A DNA stretch of 64,000 nucleotides from a bacterium (GTDB lineage: Bacteria > UBA8248). Both the position numbers and the translations under genes were made by a program. The notes under the pieces are model-generated. The model searched no databases and was not told the DNA's origin. It saw only the letters and a list, made by a program, of their open reading frames with translations. Below, piece by piece: positions 23,937-31,172 of the stretch (its first letter is position 1; every line of letters begins with the position of its first letter). The DNA is taken from NCBI GenBank assembly GCA_965207065.1, contig OZ242260.1:4320001-4384000 (forward strand). Direction: 5' to 3'.

Positions 23937-26423
23937 ATGACGCGAAAACCCCGAACAACCCGCCCCAGAAGAGGGACCCCACCTCCACAAGCGGGCCTTT
24001 TTCCGCAAGACGGCACCGAACTGACAGGCGCGGTGGAGCGAATTCGCTTCCGCGCGGATGACACCGGCTACACCGTCCTGCTCGTCCAGCCGGACAACGA
24101 GGATTTCCCGCGCGTGGCCGTTGTGGGCTATCTCTCCTCCATCCGCGAGGGCGAGCGCGTGCGCTTCGAGGGCGGCTGGAAGGACCACCCCAGGTTCGGC
24201 CGCCAGTTCCACGCCGATCTCGCGCGTCCTTTGGAGCCTACGACGATCGAGGGAATCGAAAAGTACCTGGCTTCGGGCATCGTGAAGAACATCGGCCCCG
24301 CGCTGGCCAGGAGAATCGTGGCGCGTTTCGGGGAGAAATCTCTCGATATTCTGGACAGCCACCCGGAGCGCCTCATGGAAGTCGCCGGTCTGGGCGCGAA
24401 GAAGCTCGAAGCCATCGTCGAGAGCTGGAAGAGCCAGAGCGAGGTCAAGGAAATCATGCTCTTCCTGCGGCAATACGACGTCCCCCTCCATCTGTCGGAA
24501 AAAATCTTGAGAACCTACGGCGAGGCGTCCATACGGGTACTGCGCGAAGACCCCTTCCGGCTGGCGTCGGAGATTCACGGCGTCGGCTTCAAGAGCGCGG
24601 ACCGCATTGCGCAGAAACTGGGCATCCCGGCGGACTCTCCCAAACGCCTGGCTGCAGGGGCCGTCTACGTGCTCAACCAACTCGCCGAGCGCGAGGGTCA
24701 CTGCTTTCTTCCCTATGGTGATCTGATCGAGACAGCAGCCGAAATGCTCGAGACGGAAGCCGATGCCTTGACACCCGTCCTCGAGAGCCTGGGCCAGGGC
24801 AGCTCGGTGGTGATCGAATCAGCGAACATGGCCGAGAATCTCGCTTCGCCCGAGGGCAAGCGCGTCTACGCACGCCCGCTCTACGCCGCGGAATGCGAGG
24901 TCGCCCGCCGGCTCGCCGCGCTCATCCGCACACCGCGCGACGAGGCGCGCCTCGAGGCCGCCATGCGGGGACAGGGGGCGCCCGGCGCCACGACGAAGGA
25001 GCGCCTGGGCCACCTCGCCCGGCGCGCGCTCGAGGGCGGCATGGCGACCAAAGATCAGGGGGCGGCCATCGAGGGCGCGCTCACGCAGAAGGTGCTCATC
25101 GTCACGGGCGGCCCCGGCACCGGCAAGACGACCATCGTAAGCGCCGTCACGAACCTCTATACGAAACTGGGCCTCCAGGTCATCCTGGGCGCACCCACGG
25201 GACGTGCGGCCAAGCGCCTCTCGGAAGTCACCGGCCACGAGGCGGCCACCATCCACAGATTGCTCGAATACAGCTGGCACTCGGGCGGTTTCACCCGCGA
25301 TGCGGAAAACCCGCTCACGGGCGACATCGTGATCATCGACGAAGCCTCGATGCTCGACGTGCACCTCACAGCCCATCTTCTGCGCGCGGTGCCCGACCCG
25401 GCGACGCTCGTCCTGGTGGGGGACGTGGACCAGCTCCCCTCCGTGGGTCCCGGCAACGTCCTGAGCGACGTCATCACCTCCGATACCCTGCCCGTCGCGC
25501 GGCTCACCGAGGTTTTCCGCCAGGCGCAGGAGAGTCTCATCGTCGAGAACGCCCACCGCGTGAACCGCGGCGAAATGCCCCGAAACGGCAAGGGGGAAAA
25601 AGAAGACGCGCCGCTCGATTACTACTTCATAGAGGAAAGCGAGGCGGAGCGGGGCGCTGACCTCATCATCGAACTGTGCCGCGAGCGCATTCCCGAGCGA
25701 TTCGGCGTCGACGCCATCGCCGATCTCCAGGTCATCTCCCCCATGCAGCGCGGCGTGCTCGGCGTGCAGAGCCTGAACGCCCGCCTACAGGAAGCGCTCA
25801 ACCCTGCCGGAAACGCACCCGCACTCCAGAGCGGAGGCCGCATTTTCCGCACCGGGGACAAGCTCATCCAGGTGCGGAACAACTACGACAAGGACGTGTT
25901 CAACGGCGACATCGGCGTCGTCAAAAGCGTCAAGACCGAAGAGGGCAGCATTCGCGTGGGCTTCGATTCGAACGTCGTCGAATACACGCGTAGCGCGCTC
26001 GATGAGGTGATGCACGCCTACGCCATCACCGTTCACAAGAGCCAGGGCAGCGAATACCCCGCCGTCGTCATTCCGCTCCACACCCAGCATTTTCCGATGC
26101 TGCAGAGAAACCTCGTCTACACCGCGCTCACGCGCGCAAAGCGTCTGGCGGTGTTCGTCGGATCGAAAAAGGCGCTCGGGATGGCGATTGGAAACGCGCG
26201 CGTGAGAAGAAGGTGGAGCGGTCTGCCCGAAAGAATCCGCCGCGAGGCGAATCTCGCCCCGCTCCTCAGGGAGCCCTCCTCTGCCCCGCAGGAGGCAGAA
26301 GCCGATGAGGCGCAATTCACCGAAGACGCCCCGCCGGATGCCCTGTATGAAGATGAAGCGACCGAGGGCGGCGGGGACCCCTCATCCGATGACGAACTGA
26401 CCTACCACCCCGTGGATGAGTAG
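23937..26423 (+). CDS. recD2: ATP-dependent RecD-like DNA helicase (RecD2)
   Basis: N-terminal OB/HhH region, GGPGTGKTT, APTGRAAKR, DEASM, GDVDQLPSV, YAITVHKSQGSEY, and an acidic C-terminal tail. Confidence 0.95.
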   Translation: MTRKPRTTRPRRGTPPPQAGLFPQDGTELTGAVERIRFRADDTGYTVLLVQPDNEDFPRVAVVGYLSSIREGERVRFEGGWKDHPRFGRQFHADLARPLEPTTIEGIEKYLASGIVKNIGPALARRIVARFGEKSLDILDSHPERLMEVAGLGAKKLEAIVESWKSQSEVKEIMLFLRQYDVPLHLSEKILRTYGEASIRVLREDPFRLASEIHGVGFKSADRIAQKLGIPADSPKRLAAGAVYVLNQLAEREGHCFLPYGDLIETAAEMLETEADALTPVLESLGQGSSVVIESANMAENLASPEGKRVYARPLYAAECEVARRLAALIRTPRDEARLEAAMRGQGAPGATTKERLGHLARRALEGGMATKDQGAAIEGALTQKVLIVTGGPGTGKTTIVSAVTNLYTKLGLQVILGAPTGRAAKRLSEVTGHEAATIHRLLEYSWHSGGFTRDAENPLTGDIVIIDEASMLDVHLTAHLLRAVPDPATLVLVGDVDQLPSVGPGNVLSDVITSDTLPVARLTEVFRQAQESLIVENAHRVNRGEMPRNGKGEKEDAPLDYYFIEESEAERGADLIIELCRERIPERFGVDAIADLQVISPMQRGVLGVQSLNARLQEALNPAGNAPALQSGGRIFRTGDKLIQVRNNYDKDVFNGDIGVVKSVKTEEGSIRVGFDSNVVEYTRSALDEVMHAYAITVHKSQGSEYPAVVIPLHTQHFPMLQRNLVYTALTRAKRLAVFVGSKKALGMAIGNARVRRRWSGLPERIRREANLAPLLREPSSAPQEAEADEAQFTEDAPPDALYEDEATEGGGDPSSDDELTYHPVDE

Positions 26424-26438
26424 CGGAGGTTCGCCGCA

Positions 26439-26467
26439 ACAAAAAAACCTGTCCCGGAAGACAGGGG
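26439..26467 (-). terminator. Intrinsic terminator of repeat unit 1 (homologues near 26947-26976 and 27372-27401)
   Basis: Minus strand CCTGTCTTCCGGGACAGG hairpin followed by TTTTTTTGTTG, conserved in all three units. Confidence 0.8.
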
Positions 26468-26491
26468 CGGTATGGCTTGTGGGAAACGCTT

Positions 26492-26770
26492 TTACTTCGC
26501 TGTCCGTTCGATGAGGGTCTTGAGGGCGATCATGGACCCTTCATGGTTTTTCATGTTTTCCTCATGTTTCTTCATGTTTTCTTCGTGCTTCTTCATGTTT
26601 TCGGCATGATTTTTCATGACCTCATCATGGCGTCTCGCGCTTTCCCTTTCCCTCAATTCCGAGGCACGGCTCATCTGCCTGAGGCCCATCAAGATGAGGG
26701 CGCACTGCGCTAGACCGATGAGGGACTGCACGGCGTAGAACCCGAGCGTCGCGATCTGAAATGTCGTCAT
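26492..26770 (-). CDS. Small membrane-anchored coiled-coil protein, copy 1 (92 aa, Met/His heptad expansion)
   Basis: RBS GAGGAAG. Reads MTTFQIATLGFYAVQSLIGLAQCALILMGL (hydrophobic), then RRHDEVMKNHAENMKKHEENMKKHEENMKNHEGSMIALKTLIERTAK. Confidence 0.8.
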   Translation of the reverse strand: MTTFQIATLGFYAVQSLIGLAQCALILMGLRQMSRASELRERESARRHDEVMKNHAENMKKHEENMKKHEENMKNHEGSMIALKTLIERTAK

Positions 26771-26850
26771 TGCTTCTTCCTCGCGGGTCCGTTGTTTTCG
26801 CTCTGCGGACACCATGGCCTCGCGTTCCATGGCCCGCAAGCTCAGACAAA

Positions 26851-26879
26851 ATACTAGTCCCTTTTCCGTTCCCCCGCAA
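26851..26879 (-). promoter_or_regulatory. Putative sigma70 promoter of unit 1 (homologues at about 27276-27304 and 27735-27763)
   Basis: TTGCGG-N17-TAGTAT in unit 1, TTGCGA-N17-TAGTGT in unit 2, TTGCGG-N17-TAGAGT in unit 3. The boxes and 17-bp spacing are conserved while the spacer sequence diverges. Confidence 0.65.
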
Positions 26880-27000
26880 GATTCGGACTATTAGTAATAA
26901 CGATTTGACCTACCACCCAGTGGATGAGTAGGGGAGGTTTGACGCAACAAAAAGCCCCGTCCCGGAGGACAGGGGCGAAATGGCTGGTGGTAGGCGAGGG

Positions 27001-27195
27001 TTACTTCGCAGTCCGTTCGATGAGCGCCTTGAGCGCGGTCATCGACTCCTCATGTCGCCTTGCGCTATCTTTTTCTCTCAATTCCGTGGCGCGGCTCATC
27101 TGCTTCAAGCCCATCAAGATGAGCAGGCACTGCGCGAGGCCGATCAAGGACTGGATAGCGTAGAACCCGAGCGACGCGATTTGAAATGTCGTCAT
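27001..27195 (-). CDS. Small membrane-anchored coiled-coil protein, copy 2 (64 aa)
   Basis: MTTFQIASLGFYAIQSLIGLAQCLLILMGLKQM...RRHEESMTALKALIERTAK. Paralogue of copies 1 and 3. Confidence 0.8.
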   Translation of the reverse strand: MTTFQIASLGFYAIQSLIGLAQCLLILMGLKQMSRATELREKDSARRHEESMTALKALIERTAK

Positions 27196-27425
27196 TTCAT
27201 TTTCCTCACGGGTCTCTTGTTATCACCCGGCGAATTCCATGGCCTCGAATCCCATGGTCCGCAACCCTGGGTAAAACACTATCCCCTATCGCGCTCAATC
27301 GCAAGATTCGGACTTTTAGTGATAACGATTTGACCTACCACCCCGTGGATGAGTAGGGGAGGTTTGACGCAACAAAAAGACCCCGTCCCGGAGGACGGGG
27401 CTGGATAGGTGTTGGGATGCGGAGG

Positions 27426-27653
27426 CTACTTCGCTGTTCTCTCGATGAGCGCCTTGAGCGCCGTCATCGACTCGGCATGTTTTTCGGCATGATTATTCAT
27501 GGCCTCCTCATGCCGCCTCGCGCTCTCTCTTTCCCTCAATTCCGAGGCGCGGCTCATCTGCCTGAGGCCCATCAAGATGAGGGCGCACTGCGCGAGGCCG
27601 ATGAGGGACTGTATGGCGTAGAACCCGAGCGTCGCGATTTGAAACGTCGTCAT
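27426..27653 (-). CDS. Small membrane-anchored coiled-coil protein, copy 3 (75 aa)
   Basis: MTTFQIATLGFYAIQSLIGLAQCALILMGL...RRHEEAMNNHAEKHAESMTALKALIERTAK. Confidence 0.8.
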   Translation of the reverse strand: MTTFQIATLGFYAIQSLIGLAQCALILMGLRQMSRASELRERESARRHEEAMNNHAEKHAESMTALKALIERTAK

Positions 27654-27782
27654 TGCTTCTTCCTCGCGGGTCCATAGTTTTTTCCCTGCGGAACGCCATA
27701 GCCTCGCGCTCCATGGCCCGCAATCCTGGATAAAACTCTATCCCCTTTCGCGCTCAACCGCAAGATTCGGGCCTGCTGCAAC

Positions 27783-28811
27783 TTACGGCTTCAGCACCAC
27801 CTTAAGCGACTCCCCCGCTTCGGCGACGAGGCGGAAGCCCTCCTGCGCCTGCTCGAGCGGGAGCCTGTGGGTGATCATCTCCTCGGCATCGATGCGTCCG
27901 GTGCTGATGAGCGCAAGCGCTTCTTCCAGATCGAGCGGAGCCGCGCCGTATGTGGTGGTGAGGGCGATCTGCTCGCTCCAGATCCGGTTCAAATCCATCG
28001 CGGGGCGGTAGCCCGGCGGCGTGGGAGCGAAAAGTTGCAGGACGCCGCACGTCGCCACGCTTGCCAGAGCCGTCTCCAAGGCCTCTGGCGCGCCGGCGCA
28101 CAGGACGACACGATCCGCCAGACGACCGTCGTTCGCCTCCCGCAAGGCTTCGGCCATATCCTCACACGGAGGCAGTGCGTGCGCGCCGAACCGCTCGACG
28201 GCTTTCAGGCGGTAAGGAGAGATGTCCGTCGCGAAAACAGGGCCCGCGCCCAACAGGCGCGCCGCCTGCACGTGCAGAAGGCCGGACATACCGCTCCCCA
28301 CCACGAGGACGCTCAGGCCCGGCATCATCCGGAAGCGCCGCCAGCCGCGCAGTACGCAACCCATCGGCTCAATGAGCACGCCCGCATCGTCGGACACTCC
28401 ATCGGGCAGGCGGAACGCGCCCCGCTCCACGTTGATGGCCGGCAGACGGATGAACTCGGCGAAACCGCCGGGGTCGAAATTCGTAGATTTCAGCATCTCA
28501 CAAGCCGTGTGGTCGCCGCGTAAACAAAGCGCGCATCGGTTGCACGGCACGTGGTGGGTGACGCAGACGCGGTCGCCGACGCAAAAGCCATCCACCCCCT
28601 CGCCCGCCTCTGCCACGACGCCCGTCACCTCGTGGCCCAGAACCCGCGGCGCGCTCCCCACCCGGTACCACTCCATGACGTCGCTTCCGCAGATGCCGCT
28701 CGCGCGCGTCTCAACCAGAAGCTCACCCGCACCGGCGCGGGGTTTTTCCACTTCCTCGATCCGCACGTCGTCGTTTCGATAATAGACCGCCGCTCGCATG
28801 GTGTCAGGCAT
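27783..28811 (-). CDS. Zinc-dependent alcohol/polyol dehydrogenase (MDR family, iditol dehydrogenase-like)
   Basis: GICGSD, GHEVTG, structural-Zn Cys cluster (CNRCALC...C), GSGMSG. Confidence 0.9.
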   Translation of the reverse strand: MPDTMRAAVYYRNDDVRIEEVEKPRAGAGELLVETRASGICGSDVMEWYRVGSAPRVLGHEVTGVVAEAGEGVDGFCVGDRVCVTHHVPCNRCALCLRGDHTACEMLKSTNFDPGGFAEFIRLPAINVERGAFRLPDGVSDDAGVLIEPMGCVLRGWRRFRMMPGLSVLVVGSGMSGLLHVQAARLLGAGPVFATDISPYRLKAVERFGAHALPPCEDMAEALREANDGRLADRVVLCAGAPEALETALASVATCGVLQLFAPTPPGYRPAMDLNRIWSEQIALTTTYGAAPLDLEEALALISTGRIDAEEMITHRLPLEQAQEGFRLVAEAGESLKVVLKP

Positions 28812-28840
28812 GATAATGCTTCCCGGGTTACGCGCAGACT

Positions 28841-29731
28841 TCAATCCGTGAGGGGCGCAACGCTCAAATCCTCGAACATCTCATAGGCGGCGTCGGGGCT
28901 CAGGTCTTCATGCACGACGGCGCGAACCGCCCGGATCATGGCGACCGGATGCGCGCTCTGGAAGATGTTCCGGCCCATGTCCACGCCCACCGCTCCCTCA
29001 TCGATGGCCCGGCGGCAGAATGCGAGCGCCTCGCGCTCGGGGACCTTCTTGCCCCCCGCGATGACGATGGGCGCGAAACAACCGCGCACCACGCGCTCAA
29101 AACCCTCGCAGTAGTAGGTCTTGACGACGTCCGCCCCGTGCTCGGCCGCGATGCGCGTCGCAAGACCCAGATAGCGGGCGTCGCGCGTCATCTCCTTGCC
29201 CACCGCCGTGATGCCCAAGACGATCAGACCCTCCCGGCGGCCCTCGTCGCTCATGCGGGCGAGGTTCAGGATGGATTCTTTCTGGTAGCGCGCGCCCACG
29301 TAGACCGACACCGAAACGCCCGCCACGCCAAGGCGCGCCGCCTCCGCCGCCGAGACTGTGATGGACTCGTTCGAGAGTTCGCGGTTCACGATTTCATCGG
29401 CGATTTGCCCTCTCAGCGCCTCGCGCGCCGTCTCATCCGCAAGGCCCGCCGACCGGATGCTCAACTCGCGCTCAAGCTCCACGGGGTCTGAATAGACGAT
29501 GGCGTTTCCGCCCGATGCCCGGAGAATTACGGGCGTCTTGCTCTCTGGCGGCATGCAGCGCAGGAAGACGCCCTTCGTGGGACTGACCGCGTCGCACCAG
29601 GCCAACAGGGGTTCGACCGTCTTCCCCGGTTCTTCGAGGCCCGAGGTCGGCCCCTGGAAATAGCCGTGGTCCACCGCCAGCATGACGATGCGCCCCGTCT
29701 TCTCGTTCATGATTTTCATATGGTCAGACAT
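28841..29731 (-). CDS. lsrF: LsrF-like class I aldolase/thiolase
   Basis: MLAVDHGYFQGPTSGLE, TAVGKEMTRDARYLGLATRIAAEHGADVVKTYY, IAGGKK, GVDMGRNIFQS. Confidence 0.85.
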   Translation of the reverse strand: MSDHMKIMNEKTGRIVMLAVDHGYFQGPTSGLEEPGKTVEPLLAWCDAVSPTKGVFLRCMPPESKTPVILRASGGNAIVYSDPVELERELSIRSAGLADETAREALRGQIADEIVNRELSNESITVSAAEAARLGVAGVSVSVYVGARYQKESILNLARMSDEGRREGLIVLGITAVGKEMTRDARYLGLATRIAAEHGADVVKTYYCEGFERVVRGCFAPIVIAGGKKVPEREALAFCRRAIDEGAVGVDMGRNIFQSAHPVAMIRAVRAVVHEDLSPDAAYEMFEDLSVAPLTD

Positions 29732-29796: not shown

Positions 29797-30786
29797 TCAT
29801 ACATCCGGTGCATTCTCCGGCGGGAGCGGCGGGCCGCCCTTGTAGAAGACGCGCGCCATCACGTAGTTTTTCGCCGTGAAATCCTCATCCCCCTTATCCT
29901 CGGCCACCGCGCGCTTCAGGATGTTGAACTTCGCATCCATGTCGTCCGCGTAGTGGAGCAGGAGCGCCTCCGCCGACATGGGAACCTTCACCGTGCCCCA
30001 GTCGGGCTGGCCCTGATGCGAGAGGATGAGGTGTTCGAGATGCAGCAGGAAATCCTCGGGCAGCGCCTCGCCTTCTGGGAATACACCCTCGCGCCCCGCC
30101 CACTCGCGGACGATGTCGCGCCCCAGCACGATATGGCCGAGGAGACGGCCGGCGGCGGTGTAGTGCGTGGCGCCCTCGGTGGAGAGTTCCTCCAGTTTAC
30201 CGATGTCGTGCAGGAGCGCGCCCGCGACGAGTAAATCCTTCGAGACGTCGTATTTATCCGCCAGATACAGGCACGTCTTCGTGACTGAGAGGGTGTGCTC
30301 CAGCAGGCCGCCCAGGTAGGGATGGTGAATGCGCTGGGCGGCGGGCCACTCGCGGAATTTCTCCTCATAGGCATCCAGGATGGCGGTGAGATAGGCGGCC
30401 ACGAGCGGGTGGCAGCCGCCCGCGATGCGCTTCGCCTCCTCCCACATGACGTCGATGTCATACGGCGTGCGCTGCACGCAGTCCTCGGGCTTGAAGCCGC
30501 TCTCATAATCCTGCTCGTTCACCCGGCGGACGCGATCCACACGAAGCTGCAGACGGCCCTGGTAGTTCTCGCCCGCGGCGCGCACCTTGACGAAATCGCC
30601 CGCCCCAATCGCGCCCTGCACCTGAGTGGCCGGCTCCCAGACCTTGGCGGGAACCTCGCCCGTGGCGTCTTCGAGCGTCAGATCGAGATACTCCCGGCCC
30701 GCGCGGCTCTGGCGCGCCTCGTATTCCCGGATTTTGAAAAAAGCATCGAACCGCTCGCCTTCTTTCAGCGTCGCAATGTTGGCCAC
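29797..30786 (-). CDS. yhaM: OB-fold + HD-domain 3'-5' exoribonuclease (YhaM/Cbf1 family)
   Basis: N-terminal OB fold (YLDLTLEDATG), PAAQRIHHPYLGGLLEHT, LLHDIGK, HLILSHQG, HYADDMDAK. Confidence 0.87.
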   Translation of the reverse strand: MANIATLKEGERFDAFFKIREYEARQSRAGREYLDLTLEDATGEVPAKVWEPATQVQGAIGAGDFVKVRAAGENYQGRLQLRVDRVRRVNEQDYESGFKPEDCVQRTPYDIDVMWEEAKRIAGGCHPLVAAYLTAILDAYEEKFREWPAAQRIHHPYLGGLLEHTLSVTKTCLYLADKYDVSKDLLVAGALLHDIGKLEELSTEGATHYTAAGRLLGHIVLGRDIVREWAGREGVFPEGEALPEDFLLHLEHLILSHQGQPDWGTVKVPMSAEALLLHYADDMDAKFNILKRAVAEDKGDEDFTAKNYVMARVFYKGGPPLPPENAPDV

Positions 30787-31172
30787 GAATACGCTCCCGA
30801 ACCAAGAAAGGAATATGAACACGCGCGAAATAAACGCGAGGCTTTATTGTAGGGGCAAGGAGGCTTAAGCCGCAATGAAAGGCGCTTTTATACGAGCGAA
30901 ACGCGTAAACCGTCCCGTAGGGTAATCCCGAAAATGGGTATTGGCGTGCTCCTGCGCCCGCCCAGTCGATGCGATTTTTGAAATCACTCCCGCTTGAGGG
31001 TCAGGCCAGGCCCGGCGGCAAGACGAGAACGCCAGTCCGAAGTCACTGCCCTTACGAAACTCACCAAAAGCGCCTTGTGTGGATCAAGAACGGCGGCCGG
31101 CCCGCTCATTCACCCACTCGCGTCACCCGGGGAGCGAAACGGAGCCGGAATCCCCGTAAAGCGCCCCGCCCT

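What the first reader, a model, noticed from the sequence alone, without database searches (positions are those of the whole stretch)
26398..27770. Tandem array of three self-contained small-protein transcription units (LDR / type I toxin-like architecture)
Seen: three diverged direct repeats (508, 425 and about 440 bp). On the minus strand each carries a TTGCGR-N17-TAGWRT promoter-like element, a ~75-80 nt leader, a GAGGAA RBS, a 64-92 aa ORF with one N-terminal hydrophobic helix and a charged helical tail ending ALK.LIERTAK, and a hairpin plus U-tract terminator. Frames, boxes and terminators are preserved despite many substitutions, which implies all copies are under selection. Known: E. 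coli ldr/rdl (LDR) and ibs/sib type I toxin loci are tandem repeats encoding small hydrophobic proteins with structured leaders. I do not recognise this protein family. Inference: an undescribed multi-copy small membrane protein system (type I toxin-like, anti-phage, or metal-binding).
Basis: partly seen in the sequence, partly recalled or inferred. Interest (0 to 1): 0.82.

Follow-up and report, generated by a model that had tools for sequence, protein, structure and literature searches.

The report
Tandem genes for modular membrane-helix proteins
Three neighbouring copies of a small gene encode one-helix membrane proteins of an undescribed family that has multiplied to about 25 copies in this sponge-associated bacterium; they are real, conserved genes, their function is unknown, and nothing marks them as a toxin-antitoxin locus.

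Summary
Window 26398-27770 carries three diverged direct repeats. Each has conserved promoter-like boxes, a ~75-nt leader, a GAGGAA ribosome site, a minus-strand ORF (75, 64, 92 aa) and a hairpin/T-run terminator. Pairwise dN/dS is 0.14-0.19.

The genes belong to a large unnamed family: 25 frames in this genome and 599 clusters in 1.84 billion representatives. Pfam, NCBIfam, PHROGs, PADLOC, PDB and Rfam give no significant hit.

The same scan met this family before, at another locus of this genome (earlier finding e1-356729).

In 14 relatives the same aldolase-adh-[array]-recD2 locus holds 1-5 units. Protein lengths differ mostly by 7- or 11-residue modules.

AlphaFold models each protein as one long helix. 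It has an N-terminal membrane span and then a salt-bridged rod, cytoplasmic by the positive-inside rule, with a straight His/Met stripe: 283 of 381 His have Met at +4.

The type I toxin reading is not supported. My favoured mechanism, which is inferred and not shown, is a membrane-tethered rod that binds soft metal ions or a partner.

The parts
27426..27653 (-). Unit 1 gene (adh-proximal), 75 aa: membrane span at about residues 6-30, then a charged helix ending ...ALKALIERTAK
   Evidence: AlphaFold2 with a 39-row alignment gives one helix, residues 3-74, mean pLDDT 83.4. dN/dS against the other copies is 0.14-0.15.
27654..27763 (-). Unit 1 control region and leader. -35-like TTGCGG 27763-27758. 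-10-like TAGAGT 27740-27735. Leader hairpin CCATGG/CTATGG 27716-27696 with a CGAGG loop. GGACCC 27673-27668. GAGGAAG 27665-27659.
   Evidence: Sequence. Block conservation in 41 units and in 31 type-1 leaders (25 invariant columns). RNAalifold keeps the 6-bp hairpin; 0 of 8 pairs are compensatory.
27370..27401 (-). Unit 1 intrinsic-terminator-like hairpin plus T-run
   Evidence: 9 pairs, 7 G-C, tail CTTTTTGTTG
27322..27356 (+). Scar: a copy of the last ~35 nt of the recD2 gene (reads ...DLTYHPVDE*), carried inside the repeat unit
   Evidence: D2; recD2-tail score 36 against adh-tail score 7
27001..27195 (-). Unit 2 gene, 64 aa (the minimal form, with no extra module)
27196..27304 (-). Unit 2 control region and leader (-35-like 27304-27299, -10-like 27281-27276)
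26945..26974 (-). Unit 2 terminator-like hairpin plus T-run
26897..26931 (+). Second recD2-tail scar
   Evidence: score 33 against 7
26492..26770 (-). Unit 3 gene, 92 aa, with four extra 7-residue modules (H-E-E-N-M-K-K type) encoded by a 21-nt tandem repeat at 26530-26634
   Evidence: (D3)
26771..26879 (-). Unit 3 control region and leader (-35-like 26879-26874, -10-like 26856-26851)
26438..26465 (-). Unit 3 terminator-like hairpin plus T-run, facing the stop codon of recD2 (26423)
23937..26423 (+). Flank: RecD2-type helicase gene, convergent with the array
   Evidence: HHH_RecD2 1.9e-37, SH3_13, AAA_30
27783..28844 (-). Flank: zinc-type alcohol dehydrogenase gene, upstream of the array and co-directional with it
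   Evidence: ADH_N 1e-23, ADH_zinc_N 3e-16

Best explanation
The three units are separately transcribed paralogous genes of an undescribed family of single-helix membrane proteins.

Each protein has four parts:
- a short N-terminus (M-T-x-F/Y-E/Q), predicted to face outward;
- one membrane span;
- a rod, predicted cytoplasmic, stabilised by salt bridges, whose length changes in helix-phase-preserving steps of 7 or 11 residues; each step carries one H-x-E-x-M module, so His and Met form a straight stripe along the rod;
- an almost invariant C-terminal patch (A-L-x-x-L-I-E-R-T).

Shown here: the genes are real and under purifying selection; the family is large, lineage-restricted and has no match in the six libraries searched; the array is old and varies in copy number; the models are all-helical; the charge pattern and the His/Met pattern are strong.

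Inferred: the N-out/C-in topology, from the positive-inside rule.

Favoured mechanism, inferred only: the rod is a membrane-tethered binding platform. Its HxxxM sites bind soft metal ions (Cu(I)-type). Module number and gene copy number set its capacity or reach, and the C-terminal patch zips rods together or docks a partner.

My odds: real gene family with this architecture, about 0.9; the metal-binding mechanism, about 0.25-0.3.
For: Coding and selection:
- dN/dS is 0.14-0.19 with dS 0.42-0.56; the median is 0.18 over 807 pairs.
- Only 12 of 39 units in multi-copy arrays have their nearest relative in their own array, so the copies are old.

Family:
- 25 frames in the own genome, 21 of them full-length.
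- 76 of 82 candidates at E <= 1e-3 in the 90% clusters; the only name given is 'hypothetical protein'.
- 599 clusters at E <= 1e-3 and 185 at <= 1e-10 among 1.84 billion representatives.
- In a sample of the phylum, 24 of 51 genomes match. That is all 22 other genomes of the genus, 0 of 19 in other genera of the same family, and 1 genome of another family.
- The family is also in three Alphaproteobacteria MAGs. One, of 2.8 Mb, has 26 matches, including tandem runs.

Architecture:
- AlphaFold2 gives one helix, residues 3-74 (pLDDT 83.4). A 176-aa paralog is one helix, residues 3-170 (pLDDT 90.3).
- The best 19-residue window has a mean Kyte-Doolittle score of 1.67. K+R average 0.07 in the N flank and 3.49 in the C flank, and the C flank has more in 59 of 59 proteins.
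- In 98 clean representatives (of the 148 looked at), 283 of 381 tail His have Met at +4, against about 23 expected; 244 are H-x-E-x-M.
- In 70 tails, opposite charges number 652 at i+3 against 381 +/- 16 in shuffles, and 574 at i+4 against 376 +/- 15. The His/Met periodicity peaks at 3.6-3.67.

Modules: the 41 units have lengths 64-100 aa. These differ mostly by a 4-residue insert in the membrane span plus 7- and 11-residue modules.

Precedent for the chemistry:
- HxxxM is named a Cu-binding motif of the importer CcoA (abstract of PMC6362234).
- HXXM and MXXH are named the Ag(I)-binding units of SilE (abstract of PMC11904771). The window heptads also read M-x-x-H.
Against: - No metal-binding, localisation or oligomer data exist.
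- His/Met sites are typical of the periplasm (recalled knowledge), whereas the rod is predicted to be cytoplasmic.
- Family-wide, MxxH is rare (52) beside HxxxM (283), so the SilE-type spacing is not general.
- The paralogs outside the window lie among unrelated ORFs. I judged this by eye only, with no family scan of those neighbours, and I recognised no metal-homeostasis gene.
- Met and His could simply be core or partner-contact residues.
- The promoter boxes fail a strict sigma-70 scan (0 sites).
- Transcription is not shown. Only a 173-nt contig of a metatranscriptome run lies on 26517-26680, and DNA carry-over cannot be excluded.
Confidence: 0.45

Rival explanations
1. Structural spacer or scaffold without metal. 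The rod is a single alpha-helix (SAH-like) or hendecad coiled coil. It holds the conserved C-terminal patch at set distances from the membrane to dock or organise a cytoplasmic partner. His and Met are contact residues.
For: - Strong i+3/i+4 opposite-charge enrichment, the hallmark given for SAH domains (abstracts of PMC5347031 and PMC5812594).
- Only about 10% L+I+V+F in the tails.
- Unbroken helices of 72 and 168 residues in the models.
- Module sizes of 7 and 11 keep the helical phase.
- The C-terminal 15 residues are almost identical between members from Nitrospinota and Alphaproteobacteria.
Against: - No partner gene is linked, and no fused forms of 365 aa or more were found (weak evidence).
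- The near-invariance of the H-x-E-x-M triplet in every module asks for more than a spacer role.
- E+D 18.8% and K+R 18.5% look lower than in classical SAH domains (compared from memory).
Confidence: 0.3
2. Type I toxin-antitoxin-like locus. The small membrane proteins are toxic when made, and unseen antisense RNAs repress them.
For: - Tandem duplication of a short membrane-protein ORF in one intergenic region was used as a search criterion for type I loci (PMC2887945, passages).
- The leaders are conserved, with a hairpin.
- The genes stand alone.
Against: - Sizes of 64-92 aa (up to 208 among the paralogs) against 'under 60' in PMC2887945, and two thirds of each protein is hydrophilic.
- No Pfam hit to any toxin family and no Rfam hit (best E 1.6, far below gathering scores).
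- No plus-strand terminator-like site recurs in the three units.
- Synonymous sites vary along the whole CDS except at codons 2 and 4.
- One to about 30 matches per genome across a whole genus, with 599 diverse clusters.
Confidence: 0.06
3. Holin-like or abortive-infection membrane effector: an N-terminal span plus a helical tail that oligomerises into a pore on a trigger, as in BhlA/XhlA-type proteins.
For: - The overall shape is the same.
- Weak language-model neighbours include a viral cluster in which 28% of members carry Holin_BhlA (score 0.85, below the tool's 0.9 line).
- Sub-threshold XhlA hits (Pfam E 1.2; phrog_1193 E 4.1).
Against: - All of these hits are in the chance range.
- No match in 50,697 phage or 72,556 plasmid records.
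- No lysis, prophage or defence neighbours at the window locus.
- PADLOC gives only a 15-bit hit.
Confidence: 0.07
4. Membrane-anchored hydrophilin (LEA-like) stress protectant. The 11-residue amphipathic repeats would lie on or shield the inner face of the membrane under osmotic or oxidative stress, and the Met residues could scavenge oxidants.
For: - Eleven-residue periodicity: H-to-H spacing of 11 is seen 96 times against 59 for spacing 7.
- Ala/Glu/Arg/Gln-rich composition.
- High copy number.
Against: - No LEA family hit.
- The apolar stripe is very narrow and includes His.
- The strictly conserved C-terminal patch is not expected of a bulk protectant.
Confidence: 0.08

Closest known systems
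E. coli ldr/rdl and ibs/sib type I toxin-antitoxin loci
   Same: Tandem repeats of self-contained units in one intergenic region, each encoding a small protein with one membrane span and a polar C-terminus (PMC2887945, passages).
   Different: The proteins here are 64-208 aa with a long charged helix. No antisense RNA is evident, there is no sequence relation, and the paralogs lie scattered over the genome.
SilE/PcoE periplasmic His/Met 'molecular sponge' proteins
   Same: Repeated His/Met pairs; in SilE, HXXM and MXXH are named the Ag(I)-binding units (abstract of PMC11904771; title of PMC5008109 in the listing). The window heptads contain M-x-x-H as well as H-x-x-x-M.
   Different: No homology. 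The dominant spacing here is i,i+4. There is an N-terminal membrane anchor and no signal peptide. The tail is predicted cytoplasmic and helical rather than disordered.
HxxxM/MxxxM copper-binding motifs of the MFS importer CcoA (CalT family)
   Same: HxxxM on a helix is named a Cu-binding motif (abstract of PMC6362234).
   Different: In CcoA the motifs lie in a multi-helix transporter (the MFS architecture is recalled). Here they are repeated up to about ten times on a soluble rod.
Single alpha-helix (SAH, ER/K) domains
   Same: A long unbroken helix with dense i+3/i+4 salt-bridge pairs, which acts as a connector of set length (abstracts of PMC5347031 and PMC5812594).
   Different: Lower charge density, high Ala, a conserved His/Met stripe and a membrane anchor. 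The monomeric state is not tested.
Borrelia Bdr (direct repeat) proteins
   Same: Recalled from memory, and named by the earlier scan finding e1-356729: a multi-copy family of small helical membrane-anchored proteins whose length varies with the number of short repeats; function unknown.
   Different: Recalled: the Bdr anchor is C-terminal, the repeat motif is different and the genes are plasmid-borne. No homology was tested here. My literature search returned no paper describing them.

Membership tests
Type I toxin-antitoxin system | Toxin under about 60 aa and highly hydrophobic | tested here: not met
   64, 75 and 92 aa in the window; 60-208 aa among the own-genome paralogs. The tail is 18.8% D+E and 18.5% K+R. 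Criterion from a passage of PMC2887945.
Type I toxin-antitoxin system | Antisense small RNA antitoxin that pairs with the toxin mRNA | tested here: inconclusive
   No Rfam family. No plus-strand terminator-like site recurs in the three units. No stretch of suppressed synonymous change beyond codons 2 and 4. Only contigs were available, not stranded reads.
Type I toxin-antitoxin system | Tandem duplication of the unit within one intergenic region | tested here: met
   Three units here; 1-5 units in 14 relatives.
Type I toxin-antitoxin system | Toxic on overexpression | not testable with these tools
   Needs expression in a surrogate host.
SilE/PcoE-type His/Met metal sponge | Repeated HXXM / MXXH units | tested here: inconclusive
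   MxxH is present in the window heptads. Family-wide counts are 52 M..H and 5 H..M against 283 H...M.
SilE/PcoE-type His/Met metal sponge | Exported periplasmic protein | tested here: not met
   No cleavable signal is evident. The charge bias puts the tail in the cytoplasm in 59 of 59 proteins (this is a prediction).
SilE/PcoE-type His/Met metal sponge | Sequence homology | tested here: not met
   No such family among the Pfam or NCBIfam hits.
Single alpha-helix (SAH) domain | Enrichment of oppositely charged residues at i+3 and i+4 | tested here: met
   652 against 381 +/- 16 and 574 against 376 +/- 15 in 70 tails.
Single alpha-helix (SAH) domain | Monomeric and helical in solution | not testable with these tools
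   The AlphaFold monomer models are single helices, but that does not give the oligomeric state.
BhlA/XhlA holin-like proteins | Match to PF10960 or PF10779 | tested here: not met
   XhlA scores E 1.2 and 9.8 bits against a cut-off of 34.7. BhlA appears only as a 28% share of a 0.85-score Atlas neighbour.
Borrelia Bdr family | Homology, C-terminal anchor and Bdr repeat motif (all recalled) | not tested
   No Bdr sequence was fetched. No Bdr-named family appeared among the Pfam hits. The anchor here is N-terminal.

The most novel reading that the evidence does not exclude
The family is a new class of membrane-tethered metal 'rod'. Each H-x-E-x-M module would be one soft-metal (Cu(I)/Ag(I)-type) site on a rigid, salt-bridged helix. 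Rods would be clamped at the membrane span and at the conserved C-terminal patch. Binding capacity would be tuned in evolution by adding 7- or 11-residue modules and by amplifying whole genes. This would have happened in parallel in at least two phyla, with up to about 30 matches per genome.
Probability: 0.2. Interest if true: 0.75.

Novelty: new variant of a known kind. Interest (0 to 1): 0.55.

Why it matters
Small proteins are the least charted part of bacterial genomes. It makes up a visible share of the gene count: 1 to about 30 matches per genome in a Nitrospinota genus whose DNA turns up in sponge metagenome runs, and 26 matches in one 2.8-Mb alphaproteobacterial genome.

Its strictly modular build gives a natural series of length variants. 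That makes questions about helix rulers, metal-site stacking and gene amplification directly testable with peptides and simple expression constructs. It also warns that 'tandem small membrane ORFs' is not a sufficient signature of type I toxins.

Tried and rejected
- **Self-association.** Complex prediction with two copies of unit 1 and a 39-row alignment scored 0.02 against a mark of 0.42. The verdict is no answer, so it counts neither for nor against binding.
- **SD-occluding hairpin as a family feature.** Several paralogs look as if CCCN pairs with NGGG of the SD. However, the mean unpaired probability of the SD is 0.46 in 19 family leaders and 0.39 in 400 control genes (Mann-Whitney p 0.80). 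The window copies are 0.79-0.99 unpaired. Rejected.
- **Leader covariation.** 0 of 8 predicted pairs are compensatory in 31 type-1 leaders; the 10 type-2 leaders among the 41 were left out. Single-sequence folding z-scores are only -2.2, -0.8 and -1.5.
- **Sigma-54 promoter.** Unit 1 resembles GG-N10-GC, but the -24 GG is not conserved in the other units (read). Rejected.
- **'Each array holds only different lengths'.** This is true of 12 of 13 multi-copy arrays, but the permutation P is 0.09. Not significant.
- **Expression.** Only contigs were on offer. Three RNA-labelled runs give 2-6 short contigs scattered over the array and its flanks. This shows neither transcription nor silence, and parts without cover mean nothing.
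- **Other searches that found nothing useful.**
  - ESM Atlas: the best scores are 0.85, in the chance range.
  - Longer fused forms: none at 365-2000 aa (weak evidence).
  - PDB sequences: the best E is 1.5.
  - Plasmid and phage collections: no match (the low-complexity filter may hide repeats).
- **The recD2-tail copies inside the repeat units as functional elements.** They decay in other genomes, and some arrays carry adh-tail copies instead. They are duplication scars.

Full report
**1. What is at the coordinates**

The three direct repeats are real (a 300-nt family with spacing 425/458 and a 94-nt family with spacing 508/425). On the minus strand each unit carries the following:
- a TTGCGR-N17-TAGWRT pair of boxes;
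- a leader of about 75-80 nt;
- GAGGAA 6-8 nt before an ATG;
- an ORF of 75, 64 or 92 aa;
- a G+C-rich hairpin followed by a T-run.

The terminator-like sites are three of 8 found in 26000-28200, against 2.4 +/- 1.9 in shuffles.

The strict sigma-70 scan found no promoter (0 sites), because the -35 box matches the consensus at only 3 of 6 positions. The case for the boxes rests on their conservation in 41 units.

The 92-aa copy owes its length to a 21-nt tandem repeat (D3) that encodes four extra 7-residue modules.

**2. Are they genes?**

Yes. Nei-Gojobori dN/dS between the window copies is 0.150, 0.141 and 0.187, at dS 0.42-0.56. Among 41 units from 15 genomes the median is 0.18 (807 of 820 pairs with dS > 0.1; maximum 0.65).

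The non-coding parts of the units differ by a Jukes-Cantor distance of 0.23-0.37. That is somewhat less than dS, with islands of near-invariance at the boxes, in the leader and at the terminators.

**3. The locus in relatives**

In 14 genomes of the same genus the same place (aldolase, zinc-ADH, array, convergent RecD2 helicase) holds these numbers of units (flanks named by Pfam):

| Units | Loci |
|---|---|
| 1 | 2 |
| 2 | 5 |
| 3 | 3, plus the window |
| 4 | 3 |
| 5 | 1 |

In the 5-unit locus no recD2 match was found in the fetched stretch; transposase-like fragments lie downstream.

Two membrane-span types occur, one 4 residues longer. The window has only the shorter type.

The unit boundaries differ between arrays. 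Of the 26 inter-unit spacers:
- 11 clearly contain a copy of the recD2 3' end, including both window spacers (they read ...DLTYHPVDE* on the plus strand);
- 3 clearly contain a copy of the adh 3' end;
- 12 are too decayed to score.

So the array was built by at least two kinds of unequal duplication, and the plus-strand 'ORFs' in the window are scars.

Only 12 of 39 units have their closest relative in their own array. Copies are therefore mostly older than the species splits.

One DNA run of a natural population has a contig joining 26576 to 27481, that is, an array with fewer units.

**4. The family**

A tblastn search and an iterated HMM search of the six-frame translation of the own genome (4.48 Mb, one contig) find 25 frames, 21 of them full-length. 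They include a second tandem pair at 2.82 Mb. That place was reported earlier by this scan (e1-356729) as an 'unnamed family of modular membrane-helix proteins'. I found the paralogs before reading that note, and my results agree with it.

All members share:
- M-T-x-F/Y-E/Q at the start;
- one hydrophobic span, often with G-x-x-Q-C-x-L-I-x-x-G-L;
- a variable number of charged modules;
- A-L-x-x-L-I-E/R-R-T near the end.

Outside this genome:
- 76 close clusters, whose only name is 'hypothetical protein';
- 599 clusters at E <= 1e-3 among 1.84 billion representatives;
- no names in 10 clusters looked up.

In 51 genomes of the phylum the profile hits G000, all 22 other genomes of the genus (1-32 matches each), none of 19 genomes of other genera of the family, and 1 genome of another family.

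Record titles name Nitrospinota MAGs, and three Alphaproteobacteria MAGs also have members. One of these (2.8 Mb) has 26 matches, including tandem runs. Runs labelled sponge metagenome hold part of the window stretch.

Pfam, NCBIfam, PHROGs, PADLOC, Rfam and PDB sequences give nothing significant. Neither do phage or plasmid records.

**5. Anatomy of the protein**

AlphaFold2 models unit 1 as one helix, residues 3-74 (pLDDT 83.4). It models a 176-aa paralog as one helix, residues 3-170 (pLDDT 90.3), with no fold-back.

The most hydrophobic 19-residue window averages 1.67 on the Kyte-Doolittle scale. Its N flank has 0.07 K+R on average and its C flank 3.49, and the C flank has more in 59 of 59 proteins. 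By the positive-inside rule (established knowledge) the short N-terminus is outside and the rod is in the cytoplasm. This is a prediction.

In the tails of 98 clean representatives (of the 148 I looked at; 50 lacked a recognisable C-terminal motif and were dropped):
- 283 of 381 His have Met four residues on, against about 23 expected;
- 244 are H-x-E-x-M;
- Cys is nearly absent (5 in 7572 residues).

In 70 tails (the rest lacked my membrane-span pattern), oppositely charged pairs are strongly enriched at i+3 and i+4. The His/Met and hydrophobic positions have a period of 3.6-3.67, that is, a straight stripe.

Lengths in the 41 units run from 64 to 100 aa. The differences are almost all sums of 4 (in the span), 7 and 11. 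These steps keep the helical phase. At 1.5 A per residue (inference), the three window proteins would project about 50, 70 and 95 A beyond the membrane.

**6. How it most likely works**

Shown:
- real, old, independently terminated genes;
- a modular all-helix model;
- a His/Met stripe and a salt-bridge pattern;
- a conserved C-terminal patch.

Inferred: the topology.

My favoured mechanism (about 0.25-0.3) is a membrane-tethered rod whose HxxxM modules bind soft metal ions. Gene copies and modules would scale its capacity. HxxxM is named a Cu-binding motif in CcoA (abstract), and HXXM/MXXH are named the Ag(I) units of SilE (abstract).

The main rival (about 0.3) is a metal-free spacer or scaffold of SAH or hendecad type that docks a partner through the C-terminal patch. 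That patch is almost identical in members from the two phyla.

Against the metal idea:
- the rod is predicted to be cytoplasmic;
- I recognised no linked metal genes (neighbours of the other paralogs were judged only by eye);
- there is no assay.

**7. The type I toxin reading**

Tandem small membrane ORFs were indeed used as a search criterion for such loci (PMC2887945, passages). The other criteria fail or are open:
- the size and hydrophobicity criteria are not met;
- no antisense element can be seen;
- the contigs on offer cannot show an antisense RNA either way.

I put this reading at about 0.06, and a holin-like or defence role at about 0.07.

**8. The leader**

In 31 type-1 leaders, 25 columns are invariant and a 6-bp hairpin with a CGAGG-containing loop is kept, but no pair covaries. 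Ten units carry a different (type-2) leader.

Across the otherwise unalignable leaders of the own-genome paralogs, the word GGACCC lies just upstream of the ribosome site, typically 14-26 nt before the ATG. It occurs in 11 of 21 family leaders against 121 of 5708 control upstream regions; GACCC occurs in 16 of 21 against 9.9%. Paralogs are kin, so this is not an independent count.

SD occlusion does not explain the word. A shared regulator is possible but untested.

**9. Novelty**

No paper in my searches describes the family.

It is a new family whose architecture has analogues (SAH rods, His/Met sponges and, from memory, Borrelia Bdr proteins) but no homologue. The scan had already met it at another locus of this genome.

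This report adds:
- the orthologous-locus series;
- the duplication scars;
- the selection figures;
- the HxxxM and salt-bridge statistics;
- the topology prediction;
- the second-phylum expansion;
- the negative tests of the toxin reading.

Noticed in passing
L030:3430-4510; L033:2371-3167; L020:5370-8501: In relatives, the adh-recD2 intergenic locus takes up foreign DNA. One array has a 1.08-kb insert with a 238-aa ORF between two units. Another has a 207-aa ORF between adh and its single unit. In the 5-unit locus, ORFs that look transposase-like by eye stand where recD2 would be expected.
   Followed up: partly
window 26576-27481 (run X8): One DNA-run contig joins 26576 to 27481, skipping 904 nt, at depth 5.3 against about 11-23 nearby. 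This is a natural variant of the array with fewer units.
   Followed up: no
own genome G000, e.g. flanks of the paralogs in L034, L035, L045, L046, L049: The REP-like word TTTTCAACAACCCC occurs 89 times in the genome, counting both strands. Together with poly-G/poly-C tracts it flanks several paralogs.
   Followed up: partly
leaders of the own-genome paralogs; window 27673-27668, 27215-27211, 26790-26785: GGACCC or GACCC lies just upstream of the ribosome site in most paralogs: GGACCC in 11 of 21 leaders against 2.1% of control upstream regions. It is not explained by SD pairing.
   Followed up: partly
G059 (Alphaproteobacteria MAG reached through L066), e.g. C1:2235086-2237559: This 2.8-Mb genome of another phylum has 26 matches to the family profile, several in tandem runs. 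That is a parallel expansion.
   Followed up: partly
window 29797-30822 (-): An HD-domain protein with an OB fold (YhaM-like by architecture, a name recalled from memory) lies downstream of the aldolase. It is ordinary and unrelated to the finding.
   Followed up: no
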